A stretch of DNA of 64,000 bases, from assembly GCA_013141385.1 (NCBI GenBank), contig JABFRB010000022.1:92106-156105 (forward strand), read 5' to 3'. The DNA comes from Bacteroidales bacterium (GTDB lineage: Bacteria; Bacteroidota; Bacteroidia; Bacteroidales; Tenuifilaceae). The translations under genes and the position numbers were made by a program. The notes beneath the pieces were generated by a model. That model made no database searches and was not told where the DNA came from. It saw only the letters and a list, made by a program, of their open reading frames with translations. Every line of letters starts with the position of its first letter. The stretch's first letter is position 1. Shown here in pieces: positions 37,771 to 58,480 of this stretch.

Positions 37771-37854
37771 GTGAAAAATGAAAAGATTTTGGAGTTTGGG
37801 TAAACGATAAGGCTATCGCAAAGTGCGATTATTGAGATGCAATGGTATTTTATT
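37771..37854. repeat. Solo copy (A) of the ~84-bp cassette-terminal element containing the ATCGCAAAGTGCGAT palindrome
   Basis: GTGAAAAATGAAAAGATTTTGGAGTTTGGGTAAACGATAAGGCTATCGCAAAGTGCGATTATTGAGATGCAATGGTATTTTATT; the same element recurs at 37968-38050 and 39231-39312. Confidence 0.55.
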
Positions 37855-37910
37855 TCAGTGCAATTTAGGATTGTTGTTTAGTAATGGGGCTTGATTCATC
37901 AAAGGGGAAA

Positions 37911-37973
37911 GGGAAAAGGGAAAAATGAAAAGGGAAAAGGGAAAAATGGAAAGGGAAAAGGGAAAAATGGAAA
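37911..37973. repeat. Purine-rich minisatellite, 3 x 21 bp (GGGAAAAGGGAAAAATGRAAA)
   Basis: Three exact or near-exact tandem units read directly. Confidence 0.7.
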
Positions 37974-38106
37974 GTGATAAGGTTTTGGAGTTAGGATGCA
38001 CAATAAGGCTATCGCAAAGTGCGATTATTGAGATGCAATGGTATTTTATTTGAGCATGTTTTTACCTTTTATCAAGTTTAATGATTCTGATTTTATCTTA
38101 GGATTT

Positions 38107-38457
38107 TTAGCTCCTTAAAATCTTATCCATTGCTTTACCCTTTGCCAATTCATCAACTAGTTTATCTAGGTAACGAATTTTTTGCATAAGCTCGTCTTCA
38201 ATTTCTTCAACTCGATAACCACAAATTACGCCCATGATTTTTGAAACATTTGGATTAATCTGCGGTGCTTGGGCGAAGAAGGTTTCAAAATCATTATTCT
38301 TATCGATTTGTTGTTGCAATGTTTGTTGATCATATCCTGTTAGCCAAAAAATAATGGCATCTACCTCAGCTTTTGTGCGTCCCTTTTTCTCCGTTTTTTG
38401 TATATACAACGGGTATACACTTGCAAAAGAGGTTTTAAATATTTTTGTATTATCCAT
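38107..38457 (-). CDS. Small conserved hypothetical protein (cassette gene 3, copy 1)
   Basis: 116 aa, [47 protein letters not shown]…; conserved-looking, function unknown (DUF-type). Confidence 0.4.
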
Positions 38458-38609
38458 TTTGCTTGTTATTAATTATCAAGGTTAATTTCCTTTAGTCAGC
38501 AACTAGTTAACTTTGTTGTTCTTGCGTTCCTAATGAGTCAACAGCCCAAATACAACCGAGCGTTTTGTGCGAGTTCGGCGGAGCCAATAAATACGCTGTC
38601 AGTGCTAGG

Positions 38610-38918
38610 CTATATTTTCTTGATTTTCTCTGGGTTCTGTCTACAATCAAAGACTGATGCAATTGTGATAAGATTTTCCTTCTTCCAATAAATGATTTTG
38701 TAATTGCTTTCAACCAGATATCTAAATTCTTCTGGGTAGTTGCTTAAAAGTTCTTCTTTCGGGCCTGCTGATGGATTGCTTTCTAGGATGGTAACTTTGT
38801 CAAGAATTCTATTTATTATCTTTCTTGCAATTCGTGAACTAACCTCTAATGAATAGTAATCAAATATGTCTTTGAGTTGCCTTTCAGACAGTTCAGACCA
38901 TTCAATCCTTATTTCCAT
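38610..38918 (-). CDS. Type II toxin, ParE/RelE family (copy 1)
   Basis: 102 aa; …YKIIYWKKENLITIASVFDCRQNP… typical RelE/ParE C-terminal region; 10-bp overlap with upstream antitoxin ORF. Confidence 0.7.
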   Translation of the reverse strand: MEIRIEWSELSERQLKDIFDYYSLEVSSRIARKIINRILDKVTILESNPSAGPKEELLSNYPEEFRYLVESNYKIIYWKKENLITIASVFDCRQNPEKIKKI

Positions 38919-39151
38919 GTCTTCACCTTCTTCTTAAGTTCTTGGTGAGTGATAACTCGACCAGTATCGCAATCACATTTCGCTTGGTCAATCATTTCAT
39001 GGAATTCGTTCAACGACATGGGTTTTAAGTTTTTTTCATGAGAAACTTTCTTTTCCTGCTTAATGAAAGATTCAATTTTAGTGATTAGACTTTCGTCACT
39101 AATACGTAGGAATTCTTCAATTAGAATCAGTTTTCTCGCTTGAATATTCAT
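38909..39151 (-). CDS. Putative antitoxin / addiction-module component (copy 1)
   Basis: 80-aa ORF directly upstream of and overlapping the toxin gene; small, charged, helical. Confidence 0.5.
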   Translation of the reverse strand: MNIQARKLILIEEFLRISDESLITKIESFIKQEKKVSHEKNLKPMSLNEFHEMIDQAKCDCDTGRVITHQELKKKVKTWK

Positions 39152-39167
39152 GTCCTTAGTCTTTCTG

Positions 39168-39175
39168 CAAATATA
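39168..39175 (-). promoter_or_regulatory. Bacteroidetes-type -7 promoter box TATATTTG (minus strand) for cassette copy 1
   Basis: RC of CAAATATA; matches the TAnnTTTG consensus, 17 bp upstream of the antitoxin ATG. Confidence 0.35.
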
Positions 39176-39230
39176 AATGTTTTCGAAGGGAAAAGCATCG
39201 TCTTGTCGTTTTTTTAGCTTGACGCTAACG

Positions 39231-39312
39231 GGAAAGTGAAAAGGTTTTGGAGTTGGGGTGCACGATAAGGCTATCGCAAAGTGCGATTATTGAGATGCAA
39301 TGGTGTTTTATT
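39231..39312. repeat. Cassette-terminal element copy C (ATCGCAAAGTGCGAT palindrome at 39273-39287)
   Basis: Same ~82-bp sequence as 37771-37854 and 37968-38050. Confidence 0.55.
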
Positions 39313-39360
39313 GGAGCGCATTTTCACTTTTTTATCAAGTTTAATGATTCTGATTTTATC

Positions 39361-39720
39361 TTAGGATTTTTGGCTCCTTAATATCTTATCCATTGCTTTT
39401 CCCTTAGCCAATTCATCAACTAGCTTATCTAAGTAACGAATTTTTTGCATAAGCTCGTCTTCAATTTCTTCAACTCGATAACCACAAATTACGCCCATGA
39501 TTTTTGAAACATTTGGATTAATCTGCGGTGCTTGGGCGAAGAAGGTTTCAAAATCATTATTCTTATCGATTTGTTGTTGCAATGTTTGTTGATCATATCC
39601 TGTTAGCCAAAAAATAATGGCATCTACCTCAGCTTTTGTGCGTCCCTTTTTCTCCGTTTTTTGTATATACAACGGGTATACACTTGCAAAAGAGGTTTTA
39701 AATATTTTTGTATTATCCAT
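39361..39720 (-). CDS. Small conserved hypothetical protein (cassette gene 3, copy 2)
   Basis: 119 aa, identical to copy 1 except a 3-aa longer C-terminus. Confidence 0.4.
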
Positions 39721-39872
39721 TTTGCTTGTTATTAATTATCAAGGTTAATTTCCTTTAGTCAGCAACTAGTTAACTTTGTTGTTCTTGCGTTCCTAATGAG
39801 TCAACAGCCCAAATACAACCGAGCGTTTTGTGCGAGTTCGGCGGAGCCAATAAATACGCTGTCAGTGCTAGG

Positions 39873-40181
39873 CTATATTTTCTTGATTTTCTCTGGGTTC
39901 TGTCTACAATCAAAGACTGATGCAATTGTGATAAGATTTTCCTTCTTCCAATAAATGATTTTGTAATTGCTTTCAACCAGATATCTAAATTCTTCTGGGT
40001 AGTTGCTTAAAAGTTCTTCTTTCGGGCCTGCTGATGGATTGCTTTCTAGGATGGTAACTTTGTCAAGAATTCTATTTATTATCTTTCTTGCAATTCGTGA
40101 ACTAACCTCTAATGAATAGTAATCAAATATGTCTTTGAGTTGCCTTTCAGACAGTTCAGACCATTCAATCCTTATTTCCAT
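39873..40181 (-). CDS. Type II toxin, ParE/RelE family (copy 2)
   Basis: Identical protein to 38610-38918. Confidence 0.7.
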   Translation of the reverse strand: MEIRIEWSELSERQLKDIFDYYSLEVSSRIARKIINRILDKVTILESNPSAGPKEELLSNYPEEFRYLVESNYKIIYWKKENLITIASVFDCRQNPEKIKKI

Positions 40182-40414
40182 GTCTTCACCTTCTTCTTAA
40201 GTTCTTGGTGAGTGATAACTCGACCAGTATCGCAATCACATTTCGCTTGGTCAATCATTTCATGGAATTCGTTCAACGACATGGGTTTTAAGTTTTTTTC
40301 ATGAGAAACTTTCTTTTCCTGCTTAATGAAAGATTCAATTTTAGTGATTAGACTTTCGTCACTAATACGTAGGAATTCTTCAATTAGAATCAGTTTTCTC
40401 GCTTGAATATTCAT
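40172..40414 (-). CDS. Putative antitoxin (copy 2)
   Basis: Identical protein to 38909-39151. Confidence 0.5.
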   Translation of the reverse strand: MNIQARKLILIEEFLRISDESLITKIESFIKQEKKVSHEKNLKPMSLNEFHEMIDQAKCDCDTGRVITHQELKKKVKTWK

Positions 40415-40430
40415 GTCCTTAGTCTTTCTG

Positions 40431-40438
40431 CAAATATA
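40431..40438 (-). promoter_or_regulatory. -7 promoter box TATATTTG for cassette copy 2
   Basis: Same sequence and spacing as in copy 1. Confidence 0.35.
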
Positions 40439-40589
40439 AATGTTTTCGAAGGGAAAAGCATCGTCTTGTCGTTTTTTTAGCTTGACGCTAACGGGGGTTC
40501 AAAATCCTAATATTAGCGTTGAGTCGGATTTTTAATCCAGCTCAACGTTTGGATTTTATATGTCCGAGTTGACGAGGATAGATGGGGCA

Positions 40590-43109
40590 TTATATCATTT
40601 TTAATATATCTGATGCAACCTCATTAATATGAATAAATGTGACTCTATCACCAATTTTCAAGGATAAATCAAAAGACTCAGAAAAATATTCATTTCTTGT
40701 TACTAAATCTGAAATAATTACTAAATCTTTGTCAACATCTGTAACAATTCCCTCAAGTCTTAATTCTTTGTTTAAAAAATCAAGTTGATTGCGTGAAATT
40801 GTTGTCACTTGAGATATCCACTCCCCAGTTTCCCTATCTCGACTAGTACAGATTTTCCTAGTATCCTTTAAATAATGAGTTTGAACATCCATTAATATAC
40901 AAAAAGGATATGTAAATTCATATGTTGAACCTCTACTTCCTGCACCAACTTCTGCTAATTTTACAATATTAAACTCTTCGTTCTTAGCATGAAGAGAAGA
41001 AACTAAACTAGTTAGATTTGGTAATCTAAATCGGTAAGTTATTTGTTTTTTACATGCTTTTGCTAATGAATTAGCTATTTCTCTTTCCGACAAATCATAA
41101 CTTGACAAAAGATTTTGTGAAAAATCTTTTATGATACAAATAATATCACTCTTATTATATAATCTATTTTTTGAATAACTTGTCGAAGTAATACACTTAT
41201 CCATTAGACTTGCAAATCTACGAGAGGAACCATCTGAAGCATAAATCAGCTGTTCCAAAGCGTCATGTTCTAAACCTCCATTTATTTCAATTATATCAGA
41301 AATTTTAGTTGGTTCAATCTTGTTAATTGATACTACTTTTAAGTAATTATTAACTAACTCAATACAATACTTTCGATAAGCTTCATAATCATCACTAGTT
41401 TTTACATTGTAATCAAGGTTAACAATAGAGCCAAACCTATCCTCATTTAGAATATCTGAAATATCATTAGGATAAACAGCTATTCTAGTAAAATAAGGAC
41501 CACTATTTCTTATAGAATTCATCCAACGCAAAAAACCACTTTCAGAATCATGAAAGAATTCTCTAGGAAAAACAGGAGCAACTTCATCAATTAATAATAA
41601 AACATGAGTAAAATAGTTAGACATATTTTCCTTCAGTGCTACACCAAGCTTCCAGATAATACTTCCTTCCTGATTTGATAAGACTTTCAACTTTTGTTTG
41701 ACACGAAATAAGGCATTTCTAAATTCTGCAGATTTTAATTCTTTATCTTTTATTTCTAAAGCAGATAAGGTCGATTCAAAAATTAATTTTTCAGCAGATT
41801 CAATTATTGTACTTATTGCACTTTTCCATTCAGAACTATGAATTAATGTGAAATTTACAAGTACGGGAAATGATTCACTAACTTTTTTGTCTTTTACATT
41901 GATATCAAATGTATAATTGCCAAATACATTTAAATATCTTAATAGCATTGTTTTGCCAGAACCTCTACTTCCTCTAATTATTGCATCACCTGTGGGTCTA
42001 ACCGCACCCTTATTTCTACCCTCACTAGAAACAAACAACTGAATTATTTGATTTGTTGAGATTTTTTCTGCATTATTAAAAGTAAAGGGATTTCGTTTAA
42101 TTTTGAATTTTTCAATTAAAGTCAAATCCTCCATACTATTAGAAGAAAATGTATCAAAATTAATGATGTAAGGCAAATCAAATACGCTTGGATTTAATTC
42201 AAGTGAATTATCCTCAGTCCAAGCTCCTAAACCCAGTTTGCCACGTTTATTAGGGCTATAAGCTCTCCAATATGATTCAAGTTTTTTATTATGCGAATCC
42301 AAAATGTGAATAGTATATTGATTTTGAATTCCATCAGTCCGTTGACTTCTATCAACTCCAGCAGACCCTGAACCGGAATATATAATAACTTTACCATCAT
42401 GTTTAACCTCTTGACACCTATTTTCATGGATATGACCAGTAAATAATATGTTATAACCATTTTCAATTAAAATAGTCTCAATCTCGTAAGAATTATTAAT
42501 AATTGAATTTGATTCCTTTCCATTTTGCTCTATCCTATGATGACATATACATATTTTTGTATAATCATCATTTCCATTGCCAAGTTTCCTAACAATACTA
42601 TTAACAAGCTTCTCTGAATCTACATATCCACAATGATTTAAATGGTCTTCCTTTTCACAACTGTTTATGAACAAAAACTCAATTCCTAATCTATGATCAA
42701 AGAACCGATTATAAAACTCGGGACTTATCCTAGAGTATTTATTACATGTATTATATGCAAACTTATTATAATTACTATACTTCAGATTAACATCGCCAAC
42801 ATCTGATGATATCTCTGCTAATTTCCAATTAATATCATGATTCCCTGGTACACTTAAAACAGAGTCTTTGTCAATAGATATTTTTCGTGCTAAATTATTG
42901 ATAACATTCTCAGCGTCTAAAAATTCATCTGCATGCGCAGTTTCAGTTATATCACCTGTTAACAAAATATAAATTGGCAAAAACTGAAATTTATCCGCCA
43001 TAAAATTGATATCATTTGCAATCGATTCATAAATTTTAGAAGGATTTCCAAAACGATGTTTTGCTCCAAATTGCAAATCTGACAATTGAATAATTCCGTA
43101 TCGTATCAT
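40590..43109 (-). CDS. Calcineurin-like metallophosphoesterase (Mre11/SbcD-like) fused to P-loop NTPase with C-terminal unknown domain; candidate defense protein
   Basis: 839 aa; N-terminal motifs SDLQFG, LTGDITE, VPGNHD, ICICHH, FTGHIHEN (phosphoesterase motifs I-V); Walker A IIRGSRGSGKTMLL and Walker B HVLLLIDEV in the middle third; ~300-aa C-terminal region without recognisable motif; AT-rich codon usage. Confidence 0.6.
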   Translation of the reverse strand: MIRYGIIQLSDLQFGAKHRFGNPSKIYESIANDINFMADKFQFLPIYILLTGDITETAHADEFLDAENVINNLARKISIDKDSVLSVPGNHDINWKLAEISSDVGDVNLKYSNYNKFAYNTCNKYSRISPEFYNRFFDHRLGIEFLFINSCEKEDHLNHCGYVDSEKLVNSIVRKLGNGNDDYTKICICHHRIEQNGKESNSIINNSYEIETILIENGYNILFTGHIHENRCQEVKHDGKVIIYSGSGSAGVDRSQRTDGIQNQYTIHILDSHNKKLESYWRAYSPNKRGKLGLGAWTEDNSLELNPSVFDLPYIINFDTFSSNSMEDLTLIEKFKIKRNPFTFNNAEKISTNQIIQLFVSSEGRNKGAVRPTGDAIIRGSRGSGKTMLLRYLNVFGNYTFDINVKDKKVSESFPVLVNFTLIHSSEWKSAISTIIESAEKLIFESTLSALEIKDKELKSAEFRNALFRVKQKLKVLSNQEGSIIWKLGVALKENMSNYFTHVLLLIDEVAPVFPREFFHDSESGFLRWMNSIRNSGPYFTRIAVYPNDISDILNEDRFGSIVNLDYNVKTSDDYEAYRKYCIELVNNYLKVVSINKIEPTKISDIIEINGGLEHDALEQLIYASDGSSRRFASLMDKCITSTSYSKNRLYNKSDIICIIKDFSQNLLSSYDLSEREIANSLAKACKKQITYRFRLPNLTSLVSSLHAKNEEFNIVKLAEVGAGSRGSTYEFTYPFCILMDVQTHYLKDTRKICTSRDRETGEWISQVTTISRNQLDFLNKELRLEGIVTDVDKDLVIISDLVTRNEYFSESFDLSLKIGDRVTFIHINEVASDILKMI

Positions 43110-43650
43110 ATTTTACTTTTTATCAAGGTAGTGTTTTATTGCCTTGCGCATAACTTAATAGGGTTTTATCCCCTGTTTTCCATAACAAAATTAGCAAAAA
43201 ACATGAATGCCCAAAATTGGAAAGATCCAATAATTGAAATCCTTATAATCAAATATAACTCTTTTTATAAATTATCATTGGGCTATACTTTAGAATTATA
43301 GAACAACCCATTGTCCTATTCTATAATTCACTTTTATATTATTTCTCCAGTTTGGATTGGGAATTATTGTAGCATCCAATTTTCTTGCTTCTCTGTGTCG
43401 TTATTTTAAATATTTACATATATTTACGAAACTAATCTTCAAGTATGAATCGTTGGCAGCTTAAATTTAAGATTAAAATTAACCGCACCTGCCTCTGCGT
43501 TCGCTAATTGGATATTATCCCAATATCCCTATTTTCAATATTTTAAATTTCATTTTTCATTATTGATGCCCGCTGTTAAGCATTTTAACAGTTTGGTTTT
43601 ATACGATAATTCAATTATTACATTCTATAATCATCTAAAATAAACATAAT

Positions 43651-57321: not shown

Positions 57322-58480
57322 ATACCATCTTGAAATATAAAATAGTCCAATATATTTAATGTCGTTTTTTTTTGTATATTTGGACTATAATATAATTCAA
57401 ATATGTCAGCACCCAAAGTCGTTCATATTGGCGAAAGCCTTCAATACCTGAGGGGTCTTTTAAAAAAGACCACCCCCTTTATGGCTCCGCGGGTTAGGAT
57501 GCTTATCGAGATGAAAAAGGCGCAGGATGTGGGTGTGTCTAAGCGGGCACTGGCTGAGCTGGTGGGCGTAAATCACAACAGCATCCAAGCATGGCGGAAT
57601 CTATACCTGTCAGGAGGGGTAGCGCTTCTGATGACTCACAAGAAAACGGGCTATAAGCCGACCAAGATTTCAAAGCAGGAGCATGCAGCCCTTGATCGCA
57701 AGCTCAGAGACCCACAGAGCGGCATTCGGGGGTACACGGAGCTGATGCGCTGGCTTGAGCAGGAGTTTCATCGGAGCGTTAGCTACAATACCCTCTACAA
57801 ATACTGCGTACGCGAGTTCGGCTCATCCGTCAAGGTTGCTCGCAAGAGCCATATCAGAAAGGATGCTGCGGCTGTTGAGGTTTTTAAAAAAACTTCGCTA
57901 AAACCTGCCGCCATGCGATTGCCAGCAAAGGGGGGCGGTTCGAGAGGGTGAACCTTTTCTTCCAGGATGAAAGTCGCTTTGGCCTATTCACCAGGAATGG
58001 TAAGGCGTTGACGGCCAAAGGCGTCAAGCCCATCTGCCCCTTTCATCAGGTTTTTAAGTCCCTCTACCTATACGGCGCATTCTCGCCCGTAAATGGGGAC
58101 TACTTTATGCTGGAGCTACCATCGTGCAACGCCGATCTTTTTCAGGTATTCCTTGATGAGTTCTCACAGCAGGACCCCGATGAACTCAAGCTGATGGTCT
58201 TGGATAATGGCGCCTTTCACAAAGCCATGAAGCTTAAATCCCGGATAACATCATTCCTATTTTCCTCCCTCCATACTCCCCGGAGCTGAATCCAGCCGAA
58301 AAGGTATGGGCTAAGCTTAAGCGTGACTTTACCAACCGGCTGTTCAAAACCCTTGATGAGCTGGATGCTTACCTCTGCAACCTTTCATGCTCGATAACAA
58401 AAAAAGAGGTCATGAGCATAGGAGCGTACAGTTACATTATTTCAAACCCATTTTGGACTATTATATATTTCAATTTGGTA
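57322..58480 (+). mobile_element. IS630/Tc1-mariner-family insertion sequence (~1.16 kb) with ~28-bp TIRs and TA target-site duplication
   Basis: Left end TACCATCTTGAAATATAAAATAGTCCAA vs RC of right end TACCAAATTGAAATATATAATAGTCCAA; TA at 57320-57321 and 58481-58482; internal second copy of the TIR core (TATATTTGGACTA, 57378-57390); GC clearly higher than surroundings. Confidence 0.7.
57403..58470 (+). pseudogene. IS630-family DDE transposase, disrupted by two -1 frameshifts
   Basis: Frame 1 (57403-57951) HTH region; frame shift at or after a G6 run (57930-57935); frame 2 (57948-58289) contains …FFQDESRFGL…; second shift at CTTAAATCCC (~58235) where adding one A restores …KLKIPDNIIPIFLPPYSPELNPAEKVW…. 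Confidence 0.65.

What the first reader, a model, noticed from the sequence alone, without database searches (positions are those of the whole stretch)
40590..43109. 839-aa calcineurin-like phosphoesterase fused to a P-loop NTPase: candidate single-protein antiphage system
Seen directly: the N-terminal ~280 aa carry the five metallophosphoesterase motifs (DLQFG / GDITE / GNHD / CHH / GHIH) of Mre11/SbcD-type nucleases. This is followed by a P-loop NTPase (Walker A GSRGSGKT, Walker B LLLIDE) and then ~300 aa with no motif I recognise. The layout of N-terminal effector, NTPase and C-terminal putative sensor is that of Avs/STAND-like single-protein defense systems and of other ATPase-nuclease fusions (OLD/Gabija-type, PHP-phosphoesterase-ATPase); the fusion of the two Mre11/Rad50 activities into one short polypeptide is unusual. 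Context supports a defense role. The gene has the most AT-rich codon usage in the window and sits co-oriented immediately upstream of a duplicated ParE/RelE toxin-antitoxin (TA) cassette array. It is bounded by long AT-rich intergenic regions (43110-43650, 40415-40589) between core genes (M28 peptidase side and HAL/M16 peptidase side). I do not recognise this exact architecture as a named system.
Basis: partly seen in the sequence, partly recalled or inferred. Interest (0 to 1): 0.88.

Follow-up and report, generated by a model that had tools for sequence, protein, structure and literature searches.

The report
Distant DS-8-like phosphoesterase–ATPase phage-defence gene
This 839-residue protein joins a metal-dependent phosphoesterase to an ORC/Cdc6-type ATPase; it is a distant, uncharacterised relative of the recently validated single-protein anti-phage system DS-8 and sits in a variable genomic slot, so it is a probable new variant of a known kind of defence gene rather than a new kind.

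Summary
The ORF is real: 40590-43109, minus strand, 839 aa.

- **The "motif-less" 300 aa:** an AAA+ lid, a winged-helix-like region and a C-terminal cold-shock-like barrel.
- **Relation to DS-8:** profile-profile comparison aligns the family with true DS-8 equivalogs over 669 columns (probability 99.9 %, about 15 % identity). The protein does not hit the DS-8 model at E ≤ 1 and has a different C-terminus.
- **Context:** homologues have no conserved partner gene. They lie inside or beside type I R-M operons, Shedu, TIR/SLATT/AbiJ, toxin-antitoxins and recombinases. They are 5.5-14 GC points below their flanks. A 90 %-related genome carries other genes in the same slot.

Verdict: probable single-gene defence, a new variant of the DS-8 kind. 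Substrate and trigger are unknown. No phenotype was tested.

The parts
40590..43109 (-). Whole gene: 839-aa MPP + ORC/Cdc6-like ATPase protein (stop codon 40590-40592)
   Evidence: ORF. An identical protein, P0001, is named 'MAG: metallophosphoesterase [Bacteroidales bacterium]', and about 70 full-length homologues exist. AF2 model mean pLDDT 84.
42177..43109 (-). Residues 1-311: metallophosphoesterase (Calcineurin-CE-type effector) with a beta-hairpin extension. Motifs: DLQFG 43065-43079, GDITE 42942-42956, GNHD 42834-42845, HH 42537-42542, GHIH 42426-42437.
42093..42176 (-). Residues 312-339: low-confidence linker between effector and NTPase
   Evidence: pLDDT falls to about 57 around residues 321-330, and 321-325 is below 50. 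This stretch is variable in the alignment.
41325..42092 (-). Residues 340-595: AAA+ NTPase core. It holds the NPFxxxNAEK lead-in (42063-42092), Walker A GSRGSGKT (41949-41972), a three-helix insertion (residues 432-496), Walker B VLLLIDE (41583-41603) and the invariant E556/R558/G560 (candidate arginine finger, inferred).
41040..41324 (-). Residues 596-690: helical lid with the invariant DxxEQ...ASDGSSRR motif (GSSRR at 41217-41231). This is sensor-2-like and resembles the GDAR motif of Cdc6/RFC (inferred).
   Evidence: Helices at 617-625, 629-641, 653-669 and 673-688 in the model. Invariant D616, E619, Q620, A624, S625, G627, S628, R630, R631. Coordinates checked.
40764..41039 (-). Residues 691-782: alpha/beta region with winged-helix-like topology. 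The assignment rests on predicted topology only.
   Evidence: Strand-helix-strand-strand order at 693-732 in the model. The region is still inside the hhalign match to the DS-8 family, which runs to residue 784. No domain-level fold search was possible.
40593..40763 (-). Residues 783-839: C-terminal five-stranded cold-shock-like (OB) barrel, a putative nucleic-acid-binding or sensor tip
43110..43236 (-). Proximal upstream spacer with a possible promoter. Bacteroidetes-type TAnnTTTG elements lie on the minus strand at 43186-43193 and, just beyond this part, at 43250-43257. Synteny with the relative L021 resumes at 43237.
   Evidence: Sequence and motif list. The motif is not enriched in the window, so the promoter is weak evidence only. 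Synteny breakpoints.
38561..40589 (-). Rest of the variable island, not part of the system: two copies of antitoxin (80 aa) + ParE (102 aa), a duplicated DUF2200, and the 175-bp spacer
   Evidence: Tandem repeat with a 1263-bp period. Pfam ParE_toxin and DUF2200. Absent from syntenic L021. No ParE next to homologues elsewhere.

Best explanation
The gene most likely encodes a self-contained, horizontally mobile anti-phage (abortive-infection-type) protein of the same kind as DS-8.

**Proposed mechanism.** In uninfected cells the protein is probably a latent, ADP- or ATP-bound monomer. An infection cue would be read by the C-terminal part: the ORC/Cdc6-type AAA+ module, a winged-helix-like region and a cold-shock-like barrel. 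Given those domains, the cue is plausibly a phage nucleic-acid species or replication intermediate, or else a phage protein. Sensing would drive ATP-dependent oligomerisation through the AAA+ interfaces. Oligomerisation would switch on the N-terminal Calcineurin-CE-type metallophosphoesterase. The effector most likely hydrolyses nucleotide-type small molecules (dNDP/dNTP, NAD+ or a cyclic or linear nucleotide) rather than cutting DNA. That would starve phage replication and arrest the cell.

**Shown here.**
- The domain anatomy and the conservation of all catalytic and ATPase residues.
- Remote full-length homology to DS-8.
- The effector clade.
- Single-gene status.
- Location in variable or defence-rich DNA.

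**Inferred, not shown.** The defence phenotype, oligomerisation, the trigger and the substrate.
For: 1. **Homology to validated systems.**
- The family profile aligns with a profile containing true DS-8 equivalogs (P0303 at 1037 bits and P0322 at 1016 bits, cutoff 790). Probability is 99.9 %, E 2.4e-33, over 669 columns, residues 2-784 against 4-741.
- The NTPase-to-winged-helix part alone still aligns (probability 92 %, E 5e-7).
- DS-8 protects E. coli. It loses protection with D52A, N84A or K375A (PMC13092281). The collinear residues here, D53, N90 and K386, are invariant.

2. **Effector clade.**
- NCBIfam DS9_1 'anti-phage phosphoesterase' matches residues 5-260 (E 1e-18).
- The same MPP clade, including the DxQ variant of motif I, is fused to NACHT, TPR-STAND, NB-ARC, PF24406, RelA/SpoT and reverse transcriptase. 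The PF24389 ATPase is also fused to Ser/Thr kinases. Stand-alone forms of about 570 aa that are closer to this protein's C-terminal module also exist. This is the effector-swapping pattern of conflict systems.

3. **Substrate lead.**
- The nearest structures are cyclic-nucleotide, glycerophospho- and ADP-ribose-type phosphodiesterases.
- The Calcineurin-CE domain of PUA-Cal-HAD converts dNDP to dNMP and cleaves NAD+ to NMN and AMP (bioRxiv 10.64898/2026.01.15.699771).
- A related 256-aa MPP sits in an operon with MazG and thymidylate synthase on an E. coli plasmid.

4. **Context.**
- Directly after hsdR of type I R-M, with GmrSD and toxin-antitoxins, in Ca. Scalindua.
- After hsdR, with Shedu, HipA and a recombinase.
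- Inside an hsdM...hsdS...hsdR operon.
- Among SLATT, TIR, AbiJ and PIN toxin-antitoxins.
- Next to integrases, a resolvase or IS elements.
- No conserved neighbouring gene.

5. **Mobility.**
- Gene GC is 5.5-14 points below the flanks in all 11 family loci, in hosts of 35-59 % GC.
- Identity is 67 % between a Bacteroidales and a Planctomycete copy.
- In a genome whose M28 peptidase is 90 % identical, the slot between DUF2200 and the lyase holds two unrelated genes.
Against: - No phenotype was tested, for this protein or any member of its family.
- It is not detected by the DS-8 equivalog model (no hit at E ≤ 1). No PADLOC-DB v2 full-length model matches it; there are only weak domain-level hits.
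- Identity to DS-8 is about 15 %. The last 55 residues (cold-shock-like barrel) have no counterpart in the alignment, so trigger and output may differ.
- Two of the 11 family loci, window included, are flanked only by housekeeping genes, apart from one DUF2442 gene.
- The His-to-Gln change in motif I could alter metal binding or chemistry.
- The aromatic RNP-type residues of classical cold-shock domains are not evident by eye in the barrel, so nucleic-acid binding is unproven.
Confidence: 0.6

Rival explanations
1. A DNA-targeting, restriction-like enzyme. The ORC/TnsC/MuB-like ATPase, with its winged-helix-like and cold-shock-like domains, loads on foreign DNA or DNA ends. The MPP then acts as an Mre11/SbcD-style nuclease on phage DNA, possibly discriminating self by methylation supplied by neighbouring methyltransferases.
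For: - Three family loci lie in or directly after type I R-M operons.
- The sister MPP+PF24389 family sits in a 4-bp-overlap operon with a C5 DNA methylase and an HFX_2341_N protein, next to EcoRII-C/Dcm.
- The best ATPase matches are DNA-binding loaders: Cdc6, ORC, TnsC, MuB.
- Lamassu systems are reported to use phosphoesterase effectors.
- The top Foldseek hit is B. subtilis YydB in a YydD-YydB complex model.
Against: - The only biochemically characterised member of this effector clade acts on dNDP and NAD+.
- Most family loci, this window included, have no methyltransferase nearby.
- From general knowledge, type I R-M operons are insertion hotspots for unrelated defence genes, so adjacency is weak evidence of cooperation.
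- The operon with a methylase belongs to a sister family that aligns only over residues 1-403.
Confidence: 0.22
2. A housekeeping or regulatory cyclic-nucleotide phosphodiesterase ('CpdA-like', as some JGI records call it), whose ATPase domain is a metabolic regulator. Not an immune protein.
For: - JGI names such as '3',5'-cyclic AMP phosphodiesterase CpdA' and 'predicted phosphodiesterase'.
- Structural similarity to Rv0805 and Lmo2642.
- Two loci with only housekeeping neighbours.
Against: - The family is rare and patchy. There are about 70 clusters at 90 % identity among 5.8 billion clusters (about 15 billion sequences), and 154 hits among 1.84 billion representatives.
- Copies in different phyla are highly similar (67 % identity between a Bacteroidales and a Planctomycete copy).
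- GC is always well below the flanks.
- The gene is absent from the syntenic slot of a 90 %-related genome.
- It is homologous to DS-8 over its full length.
- Neighbourhoods are rich in defence and mobile-element genes.
Confidence: 0.05
3. Part of a multi-gene module with the adjacent ParE toxin-antitoxin cassettes, for example an addiction or stabilisation unit for the island, or with another unseen partner. Not an autonomous system.
For: It is co-oriented with and 175 bp upstream of the duplicated antitoxin-ParE-DUF2200 cassettes. Small ORFs follow the gene in several homologue loci.
Against: - None of the ten other family loci has ParE or its antitoxin next to the gene.
- The small downstream ORFs are unrelated to one another.
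- Each antitoxin gene is preceded by its own TATATTTG element, at 40431-40438 and 39168-39175.
- DS-8 works as a single gene.
Confidence: 0.05

Closest known systems
DS-8 (DefensePredictor system 8; E. coli WP_032203427.1, 1014 aa; NCBIfam NF053861 'DS8_antiphage'; DeWeirdt et al., Science 2026, PMC13092281)
   Same: - A single polypeptide with an N-terminal metallophosphoesterase of the SMPDL3/Lmo2642-like type, a roughly 60-100-residue linker and a P-loop NTPase, followed by a helical and winged-helix-like region.
- The profiles align over 669 columns (probability 99.9 %).
- The residues whose mutation kills DS-8 (D52, N84, K375) correspond to the invariant D53, N90 and K386.
   Different: - About 15 % identity.
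- No hit to the DS-8 equivalog model at E ≤ 1.
- The ATPase is tagged PF24389 (ORC-CDC6-like) here. It is tagged PF24406 in the DS-8 family, and the DS-8 authors call it 'NACHT'.
- 839 aa against about 1010 aa.
- DS-8 has a further roughly 270-residue C-terminal region. This protein ends in a small cold-shock-like barrel.
- Motif I is DxQ here and DxH in DS-8 equivalogs.
- No experimental data exist for this family.
Sister family 'MPP + full PF24389 ORC-CDC6-like', about 940 aa (e.g. P0203, Undibacterium macrobrachii 'metallophosphoesterase family protein')
   Same: The same two-part design. hhalign probability is 99.9 % over residues 1-403: the MPP, the linker, the NPF...AE lead-in and Walker A. 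It is uncharacterised too.
   Different: - After Walker A the two families no longer align.
- The sister family matches PF24389 over its full 571 positions. This protein matches only the first 58.
- The one long-contig example is in an operon with a C5 methylase and HFX_2341_N. This family is a single gene.
DS-9 / PUA-Cal-HAD ('Metis'): PUA-Calcineurin-CE protein plus HAD phosphatase
   Same: The MPP effector domain is homologous (NCBIfam DS9_1, E 1e-18). It is the only member of the clade with known chemistry: dNDP to dNMP, and NAD+ to NMN plus AMP, activated by assembly into filaments.
   Different: - There is no PUA sensor and no HAD partner here.
- Control is by an AAA+ NTPase rather than a nucleotide-binding PUA domain.
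- The score of 67 bits is far below the family cutoff of 420.
Avs/bNACHT-type STAND NTPases (e.g. Avs5 SIR2-STAND)
   Different: - Cdc6, ORC and TnsC match better than any STAND protein.
- A sensor-2-like arginine pair sits in the lid.
- There is no large repeat sensor (TPR, WD40 or LRR).
- No significant NACHT or NB-ARC Pfam hit.
Mre11-Rad50 / SbcCD
   Same: Shares the generic metallophosphoesterase fold and its five motifs. A P-loop ATPase is present.
   Different: - The ATPase is AAA+, not ABC/SMC.
- No SbcC-like partner or coiled coil is evident.

Membership tests
DS-8 (NCBIfam NF053861 equivalog) | Scores at or above the curated whole-protein cutoff (790 bits) of the DS8_antiphage model | tested here: not met
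   The NCBIfam scan of the protein at E ≤ 1 lists only DS9_1. True equivalogs P0303 and P0322 score 1037 and 1016 bits.
DS-8 (NCBIfam NF053861 equivalog) | Collinear architecture: N-terminal MPP with catalytic Asp/Asn, linker, and a P-loop NTPase with an essential Walker A lysine near residue 375 | tested here: met
   hhalign A1 against A4: probability 99.9 %, residues 2-784 against 4-741. D53, N90 and K386 are invariant. The DS-8 mutants are D52A, N84A and K375A.
DS-8 (NCBIfam NF053861 equivalog) | The same C-terminal (sensor) region | tested here: not met
   The alignment stops at residue 784 of 839, and at about 741 of about 1010 in DS-8. This C-terminus is a cold-shock-like barrel.
DS-8 (NCBIfam NF053861 equivalog) | Confers phage resistance as a single gene | not testable with these tools
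   Needs cloning and phage challenge.
Calcineurin-CE effector clade (DS-9A / PUA-Cal) | MPP domain homologous to the DS-9A/PUA-Cal phosphoesterase, with an intact dinuclear metal site | tested here: met
   DS9_1 matches residues 5-260 to profile positions 195-483, E 1.3e-18. Metal-ligand motifs are invariant, except for the His-to-Gln change in motif I.
Calcineurin-CE effector clade (DS-9A / PUA-Cal) | N-terminal PUA-like sensor and a partner HAD phosphatase gene (the DS-9 / PUA-Cal-HAD system) | tested here: not met
   The MPP starts at residue 1. There is no HAD gene in the window neighbourhood or in 11 homologue loci.
ORC/Cdc6-like AAA+ (Pfam PF24389) | Passes the Pfam gathering score | tested here: met
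   42.9 bits against 27, but only profile positions 1-58 of 571 are matched. All homologues carry the precomputed PF24389 tag.
ORC/Cdc6-like AAA+ (Pfam PF24389) | AAA+ fold closest to Cdc6/ORC initiators, with a lid | tested here: met
   [not shown]
ORC/Cdc6-like AAA+ (Pfam PF24389) | Homology over the whole 571-position module | tested here: inconclusive
   hhalign against the full-PF24389 sister family aligns only to residue 403. Stand-alone proteins of about 570 aa align over the whole C-terminal module (E 1e-80), but they themselves match PF24389 only at its start.
STAND / Avs | NACHT/NB-ARC-type NTPase domain recognised by family models | tested here: not met
   No NACHT or NB-ARC hit at E ≤ 1 or E ≤ 10; only AAA_22 at 0.05-0.15. 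STAND structures rank below Cdc6 and TnsC.
STAND / Avs | Large C-terminal repeat or dedicated sensor domain | tested here: not met
   After the lid only about 150 residues remain: a winged-helix-like region and a cold-shock-like barrel.
Mre11/SbcD-Rad50/SbcC | MPP of the Mre11/SbcD clade, plus an ABC/SMC ATPase with a coiled coil | tested here: not met
   [not shown]
OLD / Gabija | ABC-type ATPase joined to a TOPRIM nuclease | tested here: not met
   No TOPRIM or AAA_15/AAA_21 hit in Pfam or PADLOC. The fold matches are AAA+ proteins.
Lamassu (phosphoesterase-type LmuA) | Adjacent LmuB SMC-like ATPase gene | tested here: not met
   No SMC-like gene flanks the gene in the window. The structural match to YydB is at domain level only.

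The most novel reading that the evidence does not exclude
The family would be a minimal, single-chain nucleic-acid-sensing immune receptor. The ancestral ORC/Cdc6-type AAA+ module, with its winged-helix-like and cold-shock-like domains, would recognise a phage DNA or RNA species directly rather than a phage protein. It would polymerise on that nucleic acid as ORC, TnsC and MuB do. That assembly would switch on a DxQ-variant metallophosphoesterase that collapses a nucleotide pool. This would be a mechanistic bridge between DNA-loading AAA+ initiators and NLR-type immune switches, operating in gut Bacteroides among other hosts.
Probability: 0.15. Interest if true: 0.7.

Novelty: new variant of a known kind. 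Interest (0 to 1): 0.42.

Why it matters
**What the result adds.**
- DS-8 showed in 2025-26 that a metallophosphoesterase fused to a P-loop NTPase can protect bacteria from phage. Its substrate and trigger are unknown.
- This family is a compact, very divergent relative. It keeps the effector and NTPase but swaps the sensing end for a small cold-shock-like barrel.
- It occurs in Bacteroidales, including B. thetaiotaomicron, where few defence systems have been tested, and in Planctomycetes.
- Stand-alone versions of the ATPase module also exist.

**How it could be used.**
- Comparing this family with DS-8 could show which parts set specificity, and whether these effectors deplete dNTPs or NAD+ as PUA-Cal-HAD does.
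- For annotation, current models call it only 'metallophosphoesterase' or 'CpdA'. A family model would flag it as a defence candidate.

The kind of system is not new. A specialist would find it plausible rather than surprising.

Tried and rejected
**Searches that added nothing.**
- PADLOC-DB v2, whole protein and C-terminal alignment: only weak domain hits. These were Effector PDLC00736 at 6e-8, CARF_STK_AAA at 1e-5 to 9e-7, and AbiLi at 3e-4 to 8e-3. None is a system-level match.
- PHROGs: nothing useful.
- PDB sequence searches for the ATPase and C-terminal half: no significant hit.
- tRNA and Rfam scans of the island: nothing.
- The sigma-70 promoter and terminator scan gave counts no higher than in shuffled sequence. 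The Bacteroidetes TAnnTTTG motif occurs at chance frequency in the window, so promoter statements are weak.
- tblastn against phage and plasmid records: only MPP-domain matches and no full-length relative. The family is therefore not evidently phage- or plasmid-borne.

**Hypotheses rejected.**
- A conserved partner gene. The small ORFs flanking homologues are unrelated to one another.
- A functional link to the ParE cassette. It is not conserved elsewhere.
- An Mre11/Rad50 fusion and an OLD/Gabija assignment. Fold evidence rules out both.
- The E. coli plasmid hit H5 as DS-8. It is a 256-aa MPP in a MazG-ThyA operon.

**Resources not available.**
- The paper defining Calcineurin-CE (Nicastro et al., NAR 2023, PMC10681802) is not held. 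I could not check whether it already lists an MPP + ORC/Cdc6-like architecture.
- The DS-8 source contig NZ_RRWS01000004.1 is not in the collections. I used database equivalogs that pass the NCBIfam cutoff instead.
- AFDB Foldseek is not installed.


Full report
**1. The observation**

The window holds one ORF at 40590-43109 on the minus strand: ATG start, 839 aa.
- the MPP motifs DLQFG, GDITE, GNHD, HH and GHIH;
- Walker A GSRGSGKT and Walker B VLLLIDE.

An identical protein is on record as 'MAG: metallophosphoesterase [Bacteroidales bacterium]'. About 70 full-length relatives of 831-855 aa exist at 37-81 % identity. They include Bacteroides thetaiotaomicron and Candidatus Scalindua japonica. 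In an alignment of 31 of them, all metal-ligand and ATPase motif residues are invariant. Pfam gives Metallophos at residues 6-229 and PF24389 'ORC-CDC6-like' at residues 340-399.

Two details need correcting:
- The 175-bp spacer downstream has 40 % GC and is not AT-rich.
- The last 300 residues are not featureless (section 2).

**2. Anatomy**

AlphaFold2 models of the whole protein (mean pLDDT 84) and of residues 330-839 (mean pLDDT 85, pTM 0.78) give six parts:
- *Residues 1-311:* a metallophosphoesterase with a conserved beta-hairpin extension.
- *Residues 312-339:* a low-confidence linker.
- *Residues 340-595:* an AAA+ core. It opens with the invariant NPFxxxNAEK lead-in and carries a three-helix insertion between strands 2 and 3.
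- *Residues 596-690:* a helical lid with the invariant ASDGSSRR motif. I read this as sensor-2-like (compare GDAR in Cdc6/RFC). This is inference.
- *Residues 691-782:* an alpha/beta region with winged-helix-like topology. This is also inference.
- *Residues 783-839:* a five-stranded barrel.

- A sequence profile of the family also finds Lmo2642 (E 5e-12).

- STAND proteins follow: EfAvs5 10.4, NLRP3 9.3, NOD2 9.1.
- The matching region of a stand-alone relative gives weak Pfam CSD and retron-Se72-effector hits.

So the 'Mre11/Rad50 in one chain' reading fails on both halves. The phosphoesterase is of the small-molecule phosphodiesterase type, and the ATPase is ORC/Cdc6-type AAA+.

**3. Relatives and what they say**

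*NCBIfam.* It matches only the MPP domain, to DS9_1 'anti-phage phosphoesterase' (E 1e-18, 67 bits, cutoff 420).

*DS-8 and DS-9.* Both come from the DefensePredictor study (PMC13092281).
- DS-8 is a single protein with an SMPDL3A-like metallophosphatase and a P-loop ('NACHT') NTPase. Mutating either domain abolishes defence.
- The supplement gives WP_032203427.1, 1014 aa, with mutants D52A, N84A and K375A.
- DS-9, also called PUA-Cal-HAD or Metis, has the related 'Calcineurin-CE' domain. There the domain converts dNDP to dNMP and cleaves NAD+ to NMN and AMP once the complex polymerises.

*Direct comparison with DS-8.*
- I could not fetch DS-8 itself.
- Two database proteins pass the DS-8 equivalog cutoff: P0303 at 1037 bits and P0322 at 1016 bits, cutoff 790.
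- A profile of that family aligns with the profile of the present family over 669 columns. Probability is 99.9 %, E 2.4e-33, residues 2-784 against 4-741, about 15 % identity.
- The NTPase-to-winged-helix part alone still aligns (probability 92 %, E 5e-7).
- The three residues mutated in DS-8 correspond to the invariant D53, N90 and K386.
- The window protein nevertheless does not hit the DS-8 model at E ≤ 1. It is about 170 residues shorter and ends differently.

*Sister family.* A family of about 940 aa (MPP plus full-length PF24389) aligns only through Walker A (residues 1-403).

*Exhaustive search.* A profile of residues 330-839 was run against 1.84 billion representative proteins.
- It finds only 154 proteins.
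- These include stand-alone ATPase proteins of about 570 aa that lack the MPP (E 1e-80 to 1e-47).

*Domain shuffling.*
- The same MPP clade is found fused to NACHT, NB-ARC/TPR, PF24406 (the DS-8 family), RelA/SpoT, reverse transcriptase and methyltransferases.
- In this family and its closest NACHT- and TPR-STAND-linked relatives, motif I is DxQ instead of DxH.
- PF24389 ATPases are also fused to Ser/Thr kinases.

This mix-and-match pattern is what conflict-system effector and regulator modules show. Calcineurin-STAND fusions were predicted as counter-invader systems in 2021 (PMC8195603).

**4. Genomic context**

*In the window.* The gene has the lowest GC3 (0.18) of all ORFs of at least 100 aa. 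It lies between core genes:
- *One side:* the aromatic amino-acid lyase and the M16 peptidase.
- *Other side:* the tandemly duplicated 1263-bp cassette (antitoxin-ParE-DUF2200), a 199-aa ORF and the M28 peptidase.

*Syntenic relative.* A related Bacteroidales MAG, whose M28 peptidase is 90 % identical, keeps lyase, DUF2200, M28, zinc-ribbon protein and AlkZ in the same order. Between DUF2200 and the lyase it has two unrelated ORFs (399 and 230 aa, no family hits). It has neither the ParE cassettes nor this gene. Nucleotide synteny breaks at about 38561 and resumes at 43237. The slot is therefore a variable hotspot.

*Ten further family loci:*
- Directly after hsdR of a type I R-M with GmrSD, followed by HEPN/MNT, HicAB and AAA_15/DUF4276 (Ca. 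Scalindua).
- Directly after hsdR with Shedu and HipA, followed by a serine recombinase.
- Inside a type I operon, between hsdM and hsdS, with an AAA_15 gene.
- Among SLATT, a ThsB-like TIR protein, AbiJ, PIN toxin-antitoxins and RelA/SpoT.
- Beside a resolvase, an integrase or IS21.
- After a Peptidase_S24 gene.
- Two loci with mostly housekeeping neighbours.

The genes immediately up- or downstream are unrelated to each other, so no partner is conserved. In all 11 loci the gene's GC is 5.5-14 points below its flanks, in hosts of 35-59 % GC. Together with 67 % identity between a Bacteroidales and a Planctomycete copy, this points to horizontal spread. No full-length copy was found on sequenced phages or plasmids.

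**5. Most likely function and mechanism**

The best-supported reading is an autonomous defence protein of the DS-8 kind.

*Shown:*
- the domain anatomy;
- conservation of both catalytic centres;
- remote but full-length homology to a validated system;
- the effector clade;
- single-gene status;
- location in a variable or defence-rich context.

*Inferred:*
- The C-terminal ORC/Cdc6-type module reads an infection cue. The winged-helix-like region and cold-shock-like barrel point to nucleic acid, but a phage protein is equally possible.
- ATP-dependent oligomerisation activates the phosphoesterase.
- The phosphoesterase hydrolyses nucleotide-type small molecules, causing replication arrest or abortive infection.

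I put about 0.75 on 'defence protein of this kind'. I put about 0.4-0.5 on the small-molecule substrate given that it is a defence protein.

*Main rival: a DNA-directed, restriction-like activity.* In favour:
- the repeated type I R-M association;
- the sister family's tight operon with a C5 methylase and an HFX_2341_N protein;
- the DNA-loader-like ATPase;
- the still-clear Mre11/SbcD similarity;
- phosphoesterase effectors reported in Lamassu;
- the top Foldseek hit, B. subtilis YydB in a YydD-YydB model.

Against:
- the MPP's nearest neighbours are small-molecule phosphodiesterases;
- the only known chemistry in the clade is nucleotide hydrolysis;
- most loci have no methyltransferase.

A housekeeping CpdA-like role and a functional tie to the ParE cassette are both poorly supported.

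**6. Comparison with what is known, and novelty**

The protein works like DS-8 and is its remote homologue. By the family's own curated model it is not a member, and it has a different NTPase Pfam assignment and a different C-terminus. It shares only the effector domain with DS-9/PUA-Cal-HAD. It is not Mre11/Rad50, OLD/Gabija, Lamassu or a canonical Avs/NACHT protein.

I rate it a new variant of a known kind. I could not read Nicastro et al. 2023, which defined Calcineurin-CE and may already list this architecture. That lowers the novelty claim further rather than raising it.

Interest is moderate. Its value is as a compact, divergent comparator for working out DS-8-type mechanisms, and as a defence candidate in gut Bacteroides.

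Noticed in passing
window 38067-40414: Tandem duplication (period 1263 bp, 98-100 % identity) of a three-gene cassette: 80-aa antitoxin, 102-aa ParE toxin and DUF2200 (116 and 119 aa). The syntenic relative L021 has a single DUF2200 and no ParE toxin-antitoxin. So the toxin-antitoxin inserted next to a core gene and was then duplicated with it, or the repeat is an assembly artefact.
   Followed up: partly
window 37773-38070 and 39231-39332; 37901-37982: Three copies of a 102-nt direct repeat (80-100 % identity), and an A/G-rich micro-repeat (AAAGGG/AAAATG units, periods 8 and 13) in the spacer upstream of DUF2200. Function unknown.
   Followed up: no
window 57403-58289: Two adjacent ORFs (182 and 113 aa, overlapping by 4 bp) have 52.5 % and 49.4 % GC, with GC3 of 0.59-0.62. 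The window average is 36 % GC. This is a compositional outlier in the opposite direction to the target gene and may be foreign DNA.
   Followed up: no
L021 6798-7997 and 8251-8943: In the related Bacteroidales MAG, the hotspot occupied here by the MPP-ATPase holds a 399-aa and a 230-aa ORF with no Pfam or PADLOC hit. They are candidates for a different, unknown cargo of the same slot.
   Followed up: partly
L024 8928-13836 (Undibacterium macrobrachii): The sister-family MPP + full PF24389 protein (948 aa) sits in a tight three-gene operon with 4-bp overlaps: C5 DNA methylase, MPP-ATPase, HFX_2341_N protein. It lies next to an EcoRII-C/Dcm pair and immediately after dnaA-dnaN-gyrB. This looks like a restriction-modification-style system using this protein type.
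   Followed up: no
L025 6010-8941 (E. coli IncHI1B plasmid NZ_CP016183.1): A 256-aa stand-alone MPP of the same clade heads an operon with a hypothetical protein, a MazG pyrophosphohydrolase and a thymidylate synthase. This is a nucleotide-metabolism module on a conjugative plasmid.
   Followed up: no
L011 7409-18928: A type I R-M operon interrupted by four extra genes between hsdM and hsdR: PRiA4_ORF3, the MPP-ATPase, and after hsdS an AAA_15 ATPase and a 203-aa protein. This is an embedded defence mini-island.
   Followed up: no
proteins P0266-P0272, P0290-P0291, P0316, P0325: The same MPP clade is fused to RelA/SpoT nucleotidyltransferases (about 940 aa) and to reverse transcriptases (1046 aa). 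PF24389 ATPases are fused to Ser/Thr kinases (about 1230 aa). I did not look for published characterisations of any of these architectures.
   Followed up: no
window 38507-38713 / 38533-38691 and 39770-39976 / 39796-39954: Pairs of overlapping 68-aa and 52-aa ORFs on opposite strands, partly overlapping the ParE genes. They are most likely spurious products of the mechanical ORF listing.
   Followed up: no
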